Virus record (IMG/VR): IMGVR_UViG_2645727539_000008
Coordinates: 1-26,592 of that record
DNA: 26,592 nucleotides
Reading direction: 5' to 3' (one strand)
DNA from: a virus
Lineage: Duplodnaviria > Heunggongvirae > Uroviricota > Caudoviricetes
In this document: in pieces, positions 21,716 through 26,592 of the stretch
How positions within the stretch are numbered: position 1 is the stretch's first letter
Layout of the letters: every line of letters begins with the position of its first letter
Translations under genes and position numbers: made by a program
Notes under the pieces: generated by a model
What the model saw: only the letters and a program-made list of their open reading frames with translations
What the model was told of the DNA's origin: nothing
The model's database searches: none

Positions 21716-22408
21716 ATGAACATAGGAAACCGAGTCAGACAACTTCGCCAGGCGAAGAACATGAAAATCGCCGATCTCGCTGAAGCAATAGGAGTGGATG
21801 CGGCGAATATCTCGCGCCTGGAAACAGGTAAGCAGAAACAATTCACTGAACAAGCCCTGAGTAATATTGCCAGGAGCTTAGGTGTTGATATTGCTGATCT
21901 CTTTACCTCAGACGTCAAAAGTAATACTGTATGTAAAAACAGTATTAGTGAGGATGTTGCGCAGGTGAAGGATGTATTCCGTATTGAAATGCTGGATGTC
22001 AGTGCCAGTGCGGGAAATGGCCTTATCCAGGGCGGTGATGTCATTGATGTGATTCATGCCATTGAATACAGAACTGATAATGCTGTATCGATGTTTGGCG
22101 GACGACCAGCCAATCACATTAAAGTTATCAACGTTCGTGGGGACAGTATGTGTCCAACCATTGAGCCAGGAGATCTCATCTTCGTTGATGTCAGTATCAA
22201 TCAGTTTGATGGAGATGGTATCTATGTATTTGGTTTTGATGATAAAATTTATGTCAAACGACTGCAAATGATACCTGACAAACTACTGGTGATATCTGAT
22301 AACCAGATTTACCGTGAATGGGGAATTACCAGCGAAAATGAACACCGGTTTATGGTCTTTGGAAAGGTCTTAATCAGCCAGTCACAAACCCTTAAACGAC
22401 ACAATTAA
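21716..22408 (+). CDS. CI-type prophage repressor (N-terminal HTH, C-terminal S24 LexA-like autopeptidase)
   Basis: 230 aa; HTH KIADLAEAIGVDAANISRLETG; Ala-Gly site in SASAGNG; Ser nucleophile in RGDSMCPT and Lys in VKRL. Confidence 0.9.
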   Translation: MNIGNRVRQLRQAKNMKIADLAEAIGVDAANISRLETGKQKQFTEQALSNIARSLGVDIADLFTSDVKSNTVCKNSISEDVAQVKDVFRIEMLDVSASAGNGLIQGGDVIDVIHAIEYRTDNAVSMFGGRPANHIKVINVRGDSMCPTIEPGDLIFVDVSINQFDGDGIYVFGFDDKIYVKRLQMIPDKLLVISDNQIYREWGITSENEHRFMVFGKVLISQSQTLKRHN

Positions 22409-25047: not shown

Positions 25048-25400
25048 ATGTTTTCGAAATGGAAGGGTTTCTTCGCGGGAAATGTGTACCGCGAGATCTG
25101 AAAGTGAACGAAACAAATGCTGAGTACCTAGTACGTAAATTCGACGCGCTTGAAGCTAAATGTGCGGCACTGGAAAACAAAATAATACCAGTGTCAGCTG
25201 AATTGCCACCTGCAAATGAAAGTGTTCTGTTATTTGATGCTAACGGAGAAGGCTGGCTGATTGGCTGGCGTTCTCTCTGGTACACCTGGGGACAAAAGGA
25301 AACCGGAGAATGGCAGTGGACATTTCAGGTCGGGGATCTTGAAAACGTCAATATCACTCACTGGGCAGTAATACCAAAGGCACCGGAGGCAGGGGCATAA
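25038..25400 (+). CDS. YfdS-like hypothetical protein
   Basis: 120 aa, Trp-rich C-terminus, overlaps neighbours; same length and position as yfdS. Confidence 0.55.
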   Translation: MRMNVFEMEGFLRGKCVPRDLKVNETNAEYLVRKFDALEAKCAALENKIIPVSAELPPANESVLLFDANGEGWLIGWRSLWYTWGQKETGEWQWTFQVGDLENVNITHWAVIPKAPEAGA

Positions 25401-26020
25401 TGACCACATTTACCGACAAAGAACTGATTAAAGAAATCAAAGAGCGCATAGGCAGTCTGGATGTGCGAGACAATATTGAGCGCCGTGCTTATGAAATTGC
25501 TTTGGTATCGCTGGAAGCAGAACCGGTGGCATGGCTGCATTCAGACAATGGCTTAGGTATTCCGGCAATAACACGGAGTAAAAACATTGCTGACAGTTGG
25601 TTATCAAAGGGCTGGTATGTTCAGCCGCTATATATAGCCAAGCCAGTGCCGGTGGTGCCAGATGCTCGTCCGTCTTTAAATAATGGCATAGTCGGCTTTG
25701 ATGAAGGCTGGAACGCCTGCCGCGCCGCCATGCTTAATGGTGCCGAACCTGTAAGCCAGACTTACAAGTTGAACGAGCTGTCGGGCAACTCTCCGGTAAC
25801 TCCGGATGGTTGGATAAGCTGTAGTGAGCGAATGCCGAACGATAAACAGTATGTTTGGTGTTGGGGGAAGTTTTACGGCTGGGCTGAGTGCGATACCTTC
25901 GAAGGGTATTACGATTGGTCGAAAAACAAATGGTGGGCAGTTACTGACGATGTGGAAGAATCGGCATCGAAAGTAACCCACTGGATGCCGCTACAGGAAC
26001 CGCCGCATGAGGTGAAGTAA
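25400..26020 (+). CDS. DUF551-type protein (YfdT-like, extended)
   Basis: 206 aa; C-terminal Trp/Cys-rich segment WISCSERMPNDKQYVWCWGKFYGWAECD typical of DUF551 phage proteins. Confidence 0.6.
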   Translation: MTTFTDKELIKEIKERIGSLDVRDNIERRAYEIALVSLEAEPVAWLHSDNGLGIPAITRSKNIADSWLSKGWYVQPLYIAKPVPVVPDARPSLNNGIVGFDEGWNACRAAMLNGAEPVSQTYKLNELSGNSPVTPDGWISCSERMPNDKQYVWCWGKFYGWAECDTFEGYYDWSKNKWWAVTDDVEESASKVTHWMPLQEPPHEVK

Positions 26021-26214
26021 TGAACAACTTAATGACAACTAAACAAGTCGCCGACTTCTGTGGCGTTTCAATATCAACAGTGCTTCGCTGGAACAGCATA
26101 AACCATAGGACAGGTAAGAAATATAGACCAGACTTTCCTGATCCTGATATAAAATCCTGTCCCAATAAATGGGCTTCACACAAGATTTATAGATTTGCAG
26201 GTATTATCGAGTAA
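26020..26214 (+). CDS. Excisionase-like DNA-binding protein (recombination directionality factor)
   Basis: 64 aa with HTH TTKQVADFCGVSISTVLRW; last gene of the early-left operon, next to an AT-rich structured region. Confidence 0.6.
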   Translation: MNNLMTTKQVADFCGVSISTVLRWNSINHRTGKKYRPDFPDPDIKSCPNKWASHKIYRFAGIIE

Positions 26215-26499
26215 CGTTTATTAGTTTCGATGTTAGCCAACACATCTATGGCACAATGTCAAACCCAATCTTACTTCCTGCGCTGTACTAGAACGGCCAG
26301 CCCTGACTTCATAAATTATTAACCAACTGGGAACAAGTTAGCTAGTTGGTGATGGGTGTCAGTTGTCGAAAGTCCCCCCCCACCATCACCACTAGCTGAG
26401 ACTCTTCAGTGTTACAATTGCTTTAAATGGTTGCCAAAGTACTGAAATCGAGTCTAATAGTAAAGTTTATATCTCACAAACAGTATATAGGGACAGAGA

Positions 26500-26592
26500 A
26501 TGAAACATTTAAATGATTTCCCCAAAAGAGATAGAAATCACAGAATTGAAAGACTTGCAATATCAGCTTTTGAACATTTCCTTAGTGATTCG
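26500..26592 (+). CDS. Partial ORF of unknown function (runs off window end)
   Basis: ATG at 26500 after GGGACAGAGA; 31 codons MKHLNDFPKRDRNHRIERLAISAFEHFLSDS in a low-GC region; not integrase-like. Confidence 0.3.
   Translation, partial: MKHLNDFPKRDRNHRIERLAISAFEHFLSDS

What the first reader, a model, noticed from the sequence alone, without database searches (positions are those of the whole stretch)
26215..26592. Structured AT-rich element with a C8 tract where the integrase is expected
No integrase follows the excisionase. Instead there is a low-GC segment with a nested inverted repeat (CCAACT/AGTTGG, and a 15-bp imperfect palindrome AGCTAGTTGGTGATGG...CCATCACCACTAGCT) whose loop contains a run of 8 cytosines (26374-26381), followed by a new ORF at 26500 that is not integrase-like. 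KplE1 likewise has torI and intS at opposite prophage ends, so this may be the attachment region or prophage boundary; the homopolymeric C8 tract is a potential slipped-strand variable site, and the downstream gene may be foreign cargo.
Basis: partly seen in the sequence, partly recalled or inferred. Interest (0 to 1): 0.5.

Follow-up and report, generated by a model that had tools for sequence, protein, structure and literature searches.

The report
Slippery C-run in prophage cargo leader
The hairpin with eight cytosines is not the end of the prophage but the non-coding lead-in to a foreign, probably anti-phage, gene wedged between the excisionase and the integrase; the C-run really does change length between strains, and the lead-in belongs to a widespread, unannotated DNA element that borders such cargo genes in many phages and plasmids.

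Summary
Observation confirmed: C8 at 26374-26381 lies in the loop of a 15-bp, one-bulge palindrome (26340-26397) that folds far better than shuffles (z -4.8), in a 42% GC spacer.

The main interpretation is wrong. In seven complete E. coli genomes and four metagenome contigs, the 26500 ORF is a 646-aa DUF4365+TPR protein (34% GC). A tyrosine integrase follows on the opposite strand, then yjjG. The prophage end therefore lies about 3.7 kb further on.

Two side guesses hold:
- **The gene is cargo.** It sits in a variable xis-int slot, and related prophages carry other genes there.
- **The C-run is hypermutable.** It is the only indel in an otherwise nearly invariant spacer: C7, C8, C8, C9, C9, C9, C11, C11. 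Seven assemblies with an interrupted CACCCCCC allele are invariant. A8, A7 and G7 runs nearby never vary.

Window 26224-26442 is a decayed copy of a ~220-nt conserved non-coding leader. This leader precedes unrelated single cargo genes in P2-like, P4-like, lambdoid and e14-like prophages, plasmids and chromosomal islets. Intact units are bounded by inverted 16-24-bp dyad motifs (TGTGCCAGAAGCGGAC / TGAGCGAGGAGCGGAC), and tandem units sit 31-36 bp apart.

What moves these units, and whether the C-run affects expression, remain inferred.

The parts
26020..26214 (+). 64-aa excisionase-like (TorI/Xis-type HTH) gene, the last gene of the conserved early-left block
   Evidence: ORF. Weak HTH_17/MerR hits. 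Annotated 'DNA-binding protein' in a related prophage (L008 6121-6315). Homology with about 850 E. coli prophages runs through it to about 26286.
26224..26442 (+). Diverged copy of a conserved non-coding 'cargo leader' of about 220 nt
   Evidence: nhmmer with a profile of 10 copies gives E 6e-48 over profile positions 2-234. Alignments. No Rfam family, tRNA or tmRNA.
26245..26255 (.). TCTATGGCACA, an inverted partial copy of the boundary motif. It lies in the stretch shared with other yjjG-site prophages.
   Evidence: Reverse complement is TGTGCCATAGA. Seen by eye in the alignments. The complementarity test was significant in only 4-5 of 18 family members. This is a weak call.
26284..26298 (+). 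Degenerate left boundary motif (TGTACTAGAACGGCC against family TGTGCCAGAAGCGGAC, about 12/16 with one gap)
   Evidence: Alignment A3. The strict motif scan does not find it in the window, so this copy has decayed.
26340..26397 (.). Imperfect palindrome or hairpin (15 bp plus one bulge) with a 27-nt loop
   Evidence: z -4.8. The same two-part hairpin, with a compensatory outer-stem change (CGCTAG...CTAGCG), occurs in L033. The right arm is absent in L021 and L018 and mismatched in the L006 type.
26345..26373 (+). Most conserved box of the leader: GTTGGTGATGGG-N4-AGTTGTC-R-AAAGT
   Evidence: Nearly invariant in 15 diverse copies. The pattern retrieves true homologues from genome, viral and metagenome collections.
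26374..26381 (+). Hypermutable C8 homopolymer. It replaces the family sequence TGTCGCCCGCC.
   Evidence: C7, C8, C8, C9, C9, C9, C11 and C11 in the pure-tract copies (the window plus seven complete genomes; H2 and H6 inferred from match length). Seven assemblies read CACCCCCC without variation. No other family member has a homopolymer here.
26410..26418 (+). Candidate extended -10 promoter element TGTTACAAT (prediction only)
   Evidence: Read by eye. Not reported by the consensus scan. It would place the C tract at roughly -44 to -51.
26431..26460 (+). Candidate sigma-70 promoter TTGCCA-N18-TAATAG (prediction only)
   Evidence: Conserved together with the gene in the Klebsiella, Lonsdalea and Salmonella copies. 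Below the threshold of the scan.
26500..26592 (+). First 31 codons of a 646-aa DUF4365 (PD-(D/E)xK-like) + TPR cargo gene
   Evidence: Full gene in L001 12602-14542. Pfam DUF4365 E 5e-16 plus many TPR families. The window's own source continues 516 nt further with 100% identity (L015/L030).

Best explanation
The segment is the non-coding leader and 5' end of a horizontally acquired cargo cassette. The cassette occupies the variable slot between the excisionase and the integrase of a lambdoid prophage inserted next to yjjG.

Shown:
- The gene order is xis | leader | DUF4365-TPR gene | int(-) | yjjG.
- The slot carries unrelated genes in sister prophages.
- The leader is a diverged member of a ~220-nt conserved non-coding element. 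That element precedes unrelated single cargo genes in P2-like, P4-like, lambdoid and e14-like prophages, plasmids and chromosomal islets.
- Intact units are bounded by inverted dyad motifs: GTCYGCT-TTGTGCCAGA-AGCGGAC on the left, and the TGAGCGAGG variant inverted on the right.
- Tandem units are spaced 31-36 bp apart.
- In the window the left motif is degenerate and the right one is missing.
- The C run changes length between otherwise identical copies, whereas an interrupted CACCCCCC allele does not.

Inferred:
- The window's copy is a decayed, probably immobile cassette.
- The C8 run arose by a single A-to-C change from CAC6, inside a part of the leader that had already lost the family sequence TGTCGCCCGCC.
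- It now expands and contracts by replication slippage.
- The hairpin is a lineage-specific reinforcement of a weak inverted repeat in the leader (GGTGATGG/CCATCACC), not a conserved RNA structure.
- Each length change shifts the conserved upstream box relative to the predicted cargo promoter by -1 to +3 bp. This could tune expression, but it is more likely close to neutral.
- The boundary motifs are most likely sites for a recombinase or transposase supplied in trans, with the shared leader also serving as a homology patch for cassette exchange.
For: Gene order and integrase. Variable slot with other cargo, with borders about 70 nt after xis and at the int stop codon. True junction in the int-yjjG spacer.

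Leader family. Boundary motif: 67 hits in 324 kb against 5 in shuffled sequence, arranged as convergent pairs around 0.8-3.9 kb units with constant 31-36 bp gaps. Homology breakpoints between unrelated contexts fall at the motifs. Each end is itself a 7-bp-arm dyad.

C tract: it is the only indel in the ~390-nt xis-to-ORF spacer. Over 8.46 kb shared by five genomes there are 156 SNP columns but only two other indels, both in one assembly, and the A8, A7 and G7 runs are invariant. Seven independent assemblies with CACCCCCC are all identical.

Hairpin significance. No conserved RNA fold (-5.6 kcal/mol, no covariation). No Rfam, tRNA or terminator match.
Against: - No recombinase or transposase was found inside or consistently beside the units, no target-site duplications were seen, and no empty site or circular form was demonstrated. 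Mobility is therefore inferred from architecture only.
- Breakpoints in sister prophages fall at different leader positions (profile positions 74, 108, 130). That pattern fits homologous or illegitimate exchange as well as site-specific recombination.
- No promoter was mapped. The candidate promoters are eye-reads below the scan threshold, so any effect of tract length on expression is untested.
- Some tract-length differences could be assembly errors. One assembly (04-00955) has other single-base homopolymer deletions.
- The hairpin could have a function I did not test, for example protein binding.
Confidence: 0.6

Rival explanations
1. Programmed phase-variation switch. The poly-C tract is a contingency locus that turns the cargo (defence) gene on and off. 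It would do so either by changing the spacing between an activator or UP-type site and the promoter, or by shifting the frame of a small upstream ORF.
For: Tract length is polymorphic (C7-C11), while the flanks and other homopolymers are fixed. The tract lies about 30-50 nt upstream of candidate promoter elements. It also lies inside a small ORF, MGVSCRKSPPTITTS*, whose start (ATG in GGTGATGGG) and stop (ATTCTTRA) are conserved in 9 of 15 family members. Stochastic expression of costly defence genes is a known strategy (my own knowledge).
Against: The tract is absent from every other family member. In the commonest allele of this same prophage it is interrupted (CAC6), so it is a recent accident and not a conserved device. 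It is not in the promoter spacer of either candidate promoter. The small ORF shows no codon-position periodicity and has no obvious ribosome-binding site. No expression data exist.
Confidence: 0.2
2. Prophage boundary or attachment site. The structured element would be attR or attL, and the downstream gene would lie outside the prophage.
For: No integrase lies in the window after xis. GC drops at this point. Homology with most related prophages stops at about 26286.
Against: Integrase follows the cargo gene in every full copy, and yjjG follows the integrase. The junction with universally conserved chromosomal DNA lies in the int-yjjG spacer. The same leader occurs inside P2-like and P4-like elements and on plasmids, far from any att site.
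Confidence: 0.02
3. Transcription terminator or insulator. The hairpin would stop read-through from the early-left (xis) operon into the cargo gene.
For: A stable hairpin lies directly downstream of the last operon gene. A short terminator-like hairpin plus TCTTAAGTTT sits at the equivalent place in the Lonsdalea/Klebsiella type of leader. Morons typically carry their own transcription signals (my own knowledge).
Against: No T-run follows the window's stem (CTAGCTGAGACTCTTCAG). The scan finds no terminator on the + strand here. The 27-nt loop is atypical. The hairpin is not conserved across the family.
Confidence: 0.12
4. Structured non-coding RNA (sRNA, riboregulator or 5'-UTR element) conserved with defence cargo.
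For: About 170 nt of strong sequence conservation upstream of co-directional genes in 10 of 12 inspected contexts. Hairpins are present.
Against: RNAalifold on 15 diverse copies gives -5.6 kcal/mol, with 1 of 12 pairs showing a double change. No Rfam hit was found (searches returned only spurious miRNA hairpins). The sequence between the leader and the start codon is variable (58-200 nt).
Confidence: 0.06
5. The tract-length differences are homopolymer sequencing or assembly errors, and the site is actually fixed.
For: G/C homopolymers of 8 or more are error-prone in long-read assemblies (my own knowledge). Assembly 04-00955 has two other single-base homopolymer deletions that create annotated frameshifts.
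Against: Four other assemblies have no other indel in 8.46 kb, yet read C7, C8, C9 and C11. The A8, A7 and G7 runs are identical in all five. A range of 5 nt exceeds typical error. The interrupted allele is invariant in seven short-read assemblies.
Confidence: 0.1

Closest known systems
Morons and defence hotspots of temperate phages and satellites (P2 old/tin region, P4 hotspot; Rousset et al. 2022, PMC9122126; NAR 2026, PMC13586616)
   Same: A low-GC extra gene sits between conserved phage genes, and the slot holds different cargo in sister prophages. The same leader is found in a P2-like gpA-portal hotspot and in P4-like satellites.
   Different: Here the slot lies between xis and int of a lambdoid prophage at yjjG. 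Those papers describe no shared non-coding boundary element and state that the mechanism of exchange with unrelated elements is unknown.
Homopolymeric-tract phase variation (e.g. the poly-C stretch upstream of Bordetella fim promoters, or poly-G/C tracts in Neisseria promoters; from my own knowledge)
   Same: An uninterrupted C run upstream of a gene changes length between close relatives, and an interrupted allele is stable.
   Different: The tract is not in a mapped promoter spacer or a proven ORF. It is not conserved in the element family, no ON/OFF phenotype is known, and such switches are rare in E. coli.
Integron gene cassettes, attC sites and CALIN arrays
   Same: Single promoter-proximal genes are separated by imperfect palindromic junctions of about 65-70 bp and constant size, and arrays of 2-3 units lack a nearby integrase.
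   Different: The junction arms are GTCCGCT...AGCGGAC, not RYYYAAC...GTTRRRY. Each unit also carries a ~170-nt conserved leader. No IntI was seen in the loci inspected. The hosts are prophages, satellites and plasmids of Enterobacterales.
REP/REPIN (BIME) doublets and mobile insertion cassettes (TIR-bounded passenger genes without transposase)
   Same: Each end is a short palindrome (7-bp arms). Two such ends in inverted orientation form doublets with a short fixed spacer, and the units carry passenger genes with no transposase.
   Different: Copy number is 1-2 per genome and confined to mobile elements. No RAYT or matching IS was identified, and no target duplications were seen.
KplE1 (CPS-53) torI/intS arrangement
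   Same: The yfdP-yfdQ-yfdR-yfdS-type early genes are related, and the excisionase is of the TorI type.
   Different: In KplE1 torI and intS sit at opposite prophage ends (my own knowledge). Here int lies 2.4 kb downstream of xis at the same end, on the opposite strand.
[quoted passage not shown]
   Same: The title and later citations indicate that foreign ORFs in the P2 gpA-cos variable region were linked to site-specific recombination and to sequences in pathogenic enterobacteria. One of my copies sits in exactly that region (L036).
   Different: I could not read the paper, so identity with the element described here is unverified. P2 itself lacks the motif and the leader.

Membership tests
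Prophage attachment site / prophage boundary | Lies at the junction between phage DNA and universally conserved chromosomal DNA | tested here: not met
   Cargo gene and integrase follow, and then yjjG. The junction lies in the int-yjjG spacer.
Prophage attachment site / prophage boundary | Core sequence repeated directly at the other prophage end | not tested
   The other prophage end lies outside the window and was not fetched.
Intrinsic (rho-independent) terminator | G+C-rich stem with a short loop, followed at once by a T-run | tested here: not met
   The stem is present, but the loop is 27 nt and no T-run follows. The scan finds none on the + strand.
Simple-sequence contingency locus (phase variation) | Uninterrupted homopolymer whose length differs among close relatives | tested here: met
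   C7 to C11 in the eight pure-tract copies (window plus seven complete genomes). The interrupted allele is invariant in seven assemblies.
Simple-sequence contingency locus (phase variation) | Tract placed in a coding frame or promoter spacer, so that length changes switch expression | tested here: inconclusive
   The tract is upstream of both candidate promoters, not within a spacer. It lies in a small ORF with no coding signature.
Simple-sequence contingency locus (phase variation) | Reversible ON/OFF phenotype | not testable with these tools
   Needs reporter or phage-challenge experiments.
Moron / cargo gene in a phage hotspot | Extra gene between conserved phage genes, of deviant composition, replaced by other genes in relatives | tested here: met
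   34% GC against 51% for the window. Present in 7 of 5426 genomes, and sister prophages carry other cargo.
Moron / cargo gene in a phage hotspot | Own promoter and terminator | tested here: inconclusive
   Only eye-read promoter candidates. The downstream terminator was not examined.
Integron cassette / attC | Imperfect palindromic recombination site of 57-141 bp between cassettes | tested here: met
   Junctions of about 65-70 bp, formed by two inverted motifs 31-36 bp apart. Folding support is modest (z about -2 in 2 of 6).
Integron cassette / attC | Core sites R'' RYYYAAC and R' GTTRRRY | tested here: not met
   The arms read GTCCGCT...AGCGGAC.
Integron cassette / attC | Integron integrase nearby (or a CALIN status established by an attC model) | not tested
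   No IntI is annotated in the loci viewed, but no systematic search was made and no attC covariance model was available.
TIR-bounded mobile insertion cassette / MITE-like element | Terminal inverted repeats bounding a unit whose borders coincide with homology breakpoints | tested here: met
   15 convergent pairs. Breakpoints of the L064/L012 and L069/L071 units fall at the motifs.
TIR-bounded mobile insertion cassette / MITE-like element | Target-site duplication, and an autonomous element with the same ends | tested here: inconclusive
   No duplications are evident in the flanks. No transposase was found with these ends. IS110-family genes lie beside two arrays but are not bounded by the motifs.
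Tn7 / Tn5053-type transposon end | 5'-TG terminus, several subterminal transposase-binding repeats, and adjacent tnsABC or tniABQ genes | tested here: not met
   The TG start and two or three weak internal repeats were seen by eye only. No such genes occur in any locus.
Known RNA families (Rfam 15), tRNA/tmRNA | Match to a curated covariance model or an ARAGORN call | tested here: not met
   Searches gave only sub-threshold miRNA or snoRNA hairpin noise.
Known anti-phage defence system (for the cargo gene) | Match to a PADLOC model over the whole protein | tested here: not met
   Only weak N-terminal hits to candidate family PDC-M02A (E 1.7e-6) and a generic TPR model. A defence role is inferred from the nuclease-like DUF4365 domain and the location.

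The most novel reading that the evidence does not exclude
The leader and its boundary dyads define a cassette system that is unrecognised, or was described once in 2004 and then forgotten. In this reading, single defence-type genes, each with a ~170-nt conserved leader, are bounded by GTCCGCT-N10-AGCGGAC sites and arrayed at fixed 31-36-bp spacing. A trans-acting recombinase would shuttle them among P2-like, P4-like and lambdoid prophages, plasmids and chromosomal islets of Enterobacterales. That would supply the missing mechanism for defence-gene swapping between unrelated mobile elements. The window holds a decayed member whose leader has acquired a hypermutable C tract.
Probability: 0.25. 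Interest if true: 0.8.

Novelty: new variant of a known kind. Interest (0 to 1): 0.55.

Why it matters
Taken alone, the finding is a modest curiosity: a slippage-prone C run upstream of a prophage cargo gene in E. coli, a species in which repeat-based switches are rare.

Its context matters more. The run sits in a conserved, never-annotated non-coding element that marks the upstream edge of unrelated cargo genes, many of them defence-like. It occurs in P2-like, P4-like, lambdoid and e14-like prophages, in Klebsiella, Salmonella and Cedecea plasmids, and in a Salmonella islet next to invH. Intact units are bounded by inverted dyad motifs.

Recent surveys of phage and satellite hotspots state that they cannot explain how defence genes move between unrelated elements (PMC13586616, PMC9122126). 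A shared boundary element, acting as a recombination site or a portable homology patch, makes that question directly testable.

Tried and rejected
- **tRNA/tmRNA remnant.** The stem looks like an acceptor stem ending in ACCA, but ARAGORN finds nothing and there is no T-arm.
- **Rfam families.** Nothing above noise.
- **Conserved RNA fold.** RNAalifold on 15 copies shows no covariation.
- **Small leader peptide.** The ORF MGVSCQKLSPA...GDS is present in 9 of 15 copies but shows no codon-position periodicity.
- **Minus-strand peptide.** The ...TT..HHQLA.LFP reading is explained by nucleotide conservation alone.
- **Universal upstream hairpin partner for the left motif.** Significant in only 4-5 of 18 copies. 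It is better read as the right end of a neighbouring unit.
- **Conserved sigma-70 promoter inside the leader.** No consistent hit across four loci.
- **Tn7/Tn402-type end, Xer/dif, Hin/Gin sites, LexA box, sigma-54, lambda boxA.** These were resemblances recalled from memory only. None could be tested against reference sequences, none came with the expected genes, and none is claimed.
- **P2 itself.** Its old/tin region has neither the leader nor the motif.
- **Isolated phage genomes (INPHARED).** No match to the leader. Only the first 70 nt after xis match Stx phages.
- **Literature search by sequence strings.** No hit.
- **Nilsson et al. 2004 and Odegrip et al. 2006.** Neither could be opened.
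- **Target-site duplications around units.** None seen.
Full report

- The run of eight C is at 26374-26381.
- The arms AGCTAGTTGGTGATGG (26340-26355) and CCATCACCACTAGCT (26383-26397) pair over 15 bp with one bulged T. The inner 9 bp are perfect.
- As single-stranded DNA the element folds at -12.3 kcal/mol, against -4.9 +/- 1.5 for shuffles (z -4.8, 0 of 200). As RNA in a wider context the z-score is -2.4.
- The short CCAACT/AGTTGG pair exists but is not beyond chance.
- The spacer has 41.8% GC and the ORF stub 31%, against 50.8% for the window.
- A C8 run is not improbable by composition alone (about 0.8 expected), but it is the only G/C run of 7 or more in the window.

**2. Where are we?** The window is an E. 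coli lambdoid prophage related to KplE1. It carries:

- a cI-like LexA-family repressor (21716-22408);
- yfdP/Q/R/S-type genes and a DUF551 gene (25400-26020);
- a 64-aa TorI/Xis-type HTH protein (26020-26214).

It is 100% identical to IMG/VR contig UViG_2651869725_000004, which runs 516 nt further.

Seven of 5426 complete E. coli genomes hold the whole of 25900-26592 at 98.8-99.9% identity. In all of them the ORF at 26500 is a 646-aa 'tetratricopeptide repeat protein'. A 411-aa tyrosine integrase follows 160 nt later on the opposite strand, and then yjjG-rimI-holD. Four independent metagenome or draft contigs show the same order.

Part of the int-yjjG spacer is present in 5425 of 5426 genomes, but the whole of it in only 701. 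The phage/chromosome junction is therefore there, about 3.7 kb beyond the finding.

**3. The gene is cargo in a variable slot.**

- About 850 E. coli genomes share the DUF551-xis block up to about 26286 and then diverge.
- Three sister prophages at the same yjjG site carry other genes between xis and int: two small ORFs, an ATP-binding protein plus a partner, and two hypothetical proteins.
- Homology resumes exactly at the int stop codon.
- The cargo protein has an N-terminal DUF4365 domain (PD-(D/E)xK-like, E 5e-16) and TPR repeats, with 34% GC.
- It belongs to a large family of uniform length across Proteobacteria that carries no functional name.
- PADLOC gives only weak N-terminal hits to a candidate family. 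A defence role is inferred, not shown.

**4. The C tract is hypermutable.**

- In the alignment of the 390-nt spacer plus ORF start, the only differences among six copies are the tract length and one SNP in the ORF.
- Over 8.46 kb shared by five genomes there are 156 SNP columns but only three internal indels. One is the tract. The other two are single-base deletions in A5 and T6 runs, both in assembly 04-00955, and both create annotated frameshifts.
- A8, A7 and G7 runs are identical in all five genomes.
- Pure tracts read C7 (EC2341), C8 (window, MB98), C9 (04-00955, EC13, and VG38-53E1 by match length) and C11 (2022H047, and 2022H048 by match length).
- The lengths do not follow the one linked SNP, so changes occurred several times.
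- Seven further independent assemblies, carrying a 99%-identical allele of the gene, all read CACCCCCC at this place.
- A stable interrupted allele beside an unstable pure one is the classical signature of replication slippage. It also shows that C8 is one A-to-C change from CAC6.
- Assembly error can explain at most part of the variation.

**5. What the hairpin belongs to.** The stretch 26224-26442 is a diverged member of a conserved non-coding element (nhmmer E 6e-48). Homologues were found as follows.

| Locus | Context | Downstream cargo |
|---|---|---|
| L006 | K. pneumoniae IncF plasmid | same gene (77% identity) |
| L012 | Lonsdalea chromosome | same gene |
| L064 | Salmonella islet next to invH | same gene |
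| L021 | Prophage, cargo then int | TIR-like 822-aa protein |
| L033 | Lambdoid Q-to-lysis slot | 451-aa protein |
| L036 | P2-like gpA-to-portal hotspot | KAP NTPase |
| L037, L013, L019 | P4-like satellites | various |
| L035 | e14-like prophage, after pinE | DUF6602 protein |
| L073 | Salmonella phage-plasmid | DUF262 protein |
| L007 | Cedecea plasmid | none co-directional |

- One copy (L033) hits 127 of 5426 E. coli genomes and 37 plasmids, is never annotated, and matches no isolated phage genome.
- In 10 of 12 contexts inspected the next gene is co-directional and starts 58-200 nt after the conserved block.
- The most conserved box is GTTGGTGATGGG-N4-AGTTGTC-R-AAAGT (window 26345-26373).
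- The window's C tract replaces the family sequence TGTCGCCCGCC, and no other member has a homopolymer there.
- The hairpin arms GGTGATGG/CCATCACC are shared with some members. L033 even has a compensatory outer-stem change, and L036 has GGAGATGG/CCATCTCC. But the right arm is missing in L021 and L018 and mismatched in the L006 group.

**6. What the leader is not.**

- No tRNA or tmRNA, and no Rfam family.
- No conserved RNA fold: RNAalifold gives -5.6 kcal/mol with essentially no covariation.
- No coding signature for the small ORF MGVSC... or for minus-strand frames.
- No consistent sigma-70 promoter within the conserved block.
- No canonical terminator in the window.

**7. Cassette architecture.**

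- A 16-mer, TG[TA]GC[CG]A[GAT][GA]AGC[GA]GA[CA], occurs 67 times in 324 kb of fetched loci, against 5 in shuffled sequence.
- The hits form convergent pairs. TGTGCCAGAAGCGGAC sits on the + strand at the start of the leader, and TGAGCGAGGAGCGGAC sits on the - strand after the cargo. The pairs enclose units of 0.8-3.9 kb (15 pairs listed).
- Where units are in tandem, the gap from one right motif to the next left motif is constant: 34, 33, 34, 33, 31, 32 and 36 bp.
- Homology between unrelated contexts begins or ends at these motifs. This holds for the 3.6-kb Salmonella/Lonsdalea unit, and for the 2.2-kb Yersinia unit, which sits in a conjugative element and in a prophage and whose right end falls exactly at ...CTCCTGGCAC.
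- Each end is itself a dyad, GTCYGCT-(about 10 nt)-AGCGGAC, in about 22 of 30 ends.
- Sister prophages with other cargo keep only the first 74-130 profile positions of the leader. One of them has a right motif abutting the int stop (L010).
- The window's copy has a degenerate left motif (26284-26298, about 12/16) and no right motif, so it looks like a decayed unit.

**8. Mechanism: what is shown and what is inferred.**

Shown:
- the gene order, the variable slot and the leader family;
- the paired boundary motifs with fixed spacing;
- the length polymorphism of the pure tract and the stability of the interrupted allele.

Inferred:
- The tract changes by slippage.
- It shifts the conserved box relative to the candidate promoter elements by -1 to +3 bp, with an unknown and probably small effect on expression. 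The candidates are TGTTACAAT at 26410-26418 and TTGCCA-N18-TAATAG at 26431-26460. Both are eye-reads.
- The boundary dyads are binding or crossover sites for a recombinase or transposase acting in trans, and the shared leader also provides homology for cassette exchange.

Against a clean site-specific model:
- no enzyme was found, and there are no target duplications;
- no empty site was found;
- breakpoints fall at several leader positions.

IS110-family transposases lie beside two arrays, but the motifs do not bound them.

**9. Comparison with what is known.**

- The setting is a classical moron or defence hotspot (PMC9122126; PMC13586616). Those papers describe no shared boundary element and call the exchange mechanism with unrelated elements unexplained.
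- The tract behaves like a simple-sequence contingency locus, but it lacks the defining placement and phenotype.
- The junctions resemble integron attC sites or REPIN doublets in form, but not in sequence.
- The units resemble mobile insertion cassettes, but no partner transposase was found.
- A 2004 paper on P2-like phages, whose title links their variable region to site-specific recombination, may already describe the element. It could not be read, and P2 itself lacks the motif.
- Sequence strings from the element occur in no paper of the library.

**10. Verdict.**

- The boundary interpretation is refuted.
- The cargo and slippage guesses are supported.
- The finding itself is of moderate interest.
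- The element family it led to is the more interesting result and deserves a systematic census.

Noticed in passing
L006 1889-5490; L012 2741-6314; L060 869-6097; L064 2208-7338; L069 3837-7312; L035 5000-6883; L033 4013-5907: Cargo genes are enclosed by convergent copies of a 16-mer (TGTGCCAGAAGCGGAC on the left, TGAGCGAGGAGCGGAC inverted on the right). Tandem units are separated by a constant 31-36 bp. There are 67 motif hits in 324 kb against 5 in shuffled sequence. Each end is itself a dyad, GTCYGCT-N10-AGCGGAC.
   Followed up: partly
L075-L081 (e.g. L075 about 1375): Seven independent assemblies of the same prophage, carrying a 99%-identical allele of the cargo gene, read CACCCCCC where the window has C8. 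This interrupted allele shows no length variation.
   Followed up: yes
window 26352-26399: Small ORF ATG GGT GTC AGT TGT CGA AAG TCC CCC CCC ACC ATC ACC ACT AGC TGA (MGVSCRKSPPTITTS*) spans the C tract. Its ATG (in GGTGATGGG) and its stop (in ATTCTTRA) are conserved in 9 of 15 family members, and the CAC6 allele is synonymous in this frame. No codon-position periodicity was found.
   Followed up: partly
L001 11140-11501 and 14705-15939 (E. coli 04-00955): This assembly alone has single-base deletions in an A5 run and a T6 run, which create the annotated frameshifts in a DUF551 gene and in the integrase. They are likely assembly errors, so its C9 call should be treated with caution.
   Followed up: partly
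window 26020-26214; L001 12121-12315: The 64-aa excisionase-like ORF is not annotated in any of the RefSeq records viewed that hold this prophage, although the homologue is annotated as 'DNA-binding protein' in strain TUM12357 (L008 6121-6315).
   Followed up: no
window 25400-26020; L001 11501-11626 and 11882-12121: The intact 206-aa DUF551 ORF of the window is annotated in RefSeq relatives as two 'incomplete, partial in the middle of a contig' pseudogene fragments. Metagenome gene calls give one 206-aa product (L075 401-1021). This is probably an annotation artefact.
   Followed up: no
L006 5554-6208; L073 5298-6536: IS110-family transposase genes lie immediately beyond the cassette arrays in a Klebsiella plasmid and a Salmonella phage-plasmid. 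They are on the opposite strand and are not bounded by the motifs. They may target the palindromic junctions.
   Followed up: no
L069 and L071 3813-6055 (Yersinia): A 70%-identical homologue of the cargo gene forms a 2243-bp unit, 99.6% identical between a conjugative-element context and a prophage tail-fibre context. The two motif variants are swapped relative to the gene, and the long leader is absent.
   Followed up: partly
L064 3761-7337 (Salmonella enterica, next to invH/Fic): The same leader plus DUF4365-TPR unit sits in a chromosomal islet beside SPI-1 genes in many Salmonella assemblies (cluster of 230 member sequences). It shares a 3.6-kb unit at 96% identity with Lonsdalea quercina.
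   Followed up: partly
L001 16166-16234 (between int and yjjG): A 69-nt CDS fragment annotated 'incomplete, missing C-terminus' lies in the int-yjjG spacer of every occupied genome viewed. It may be a gene stub duplicated or displaced by integration, and it marks the likely att region.
   Followed up: no
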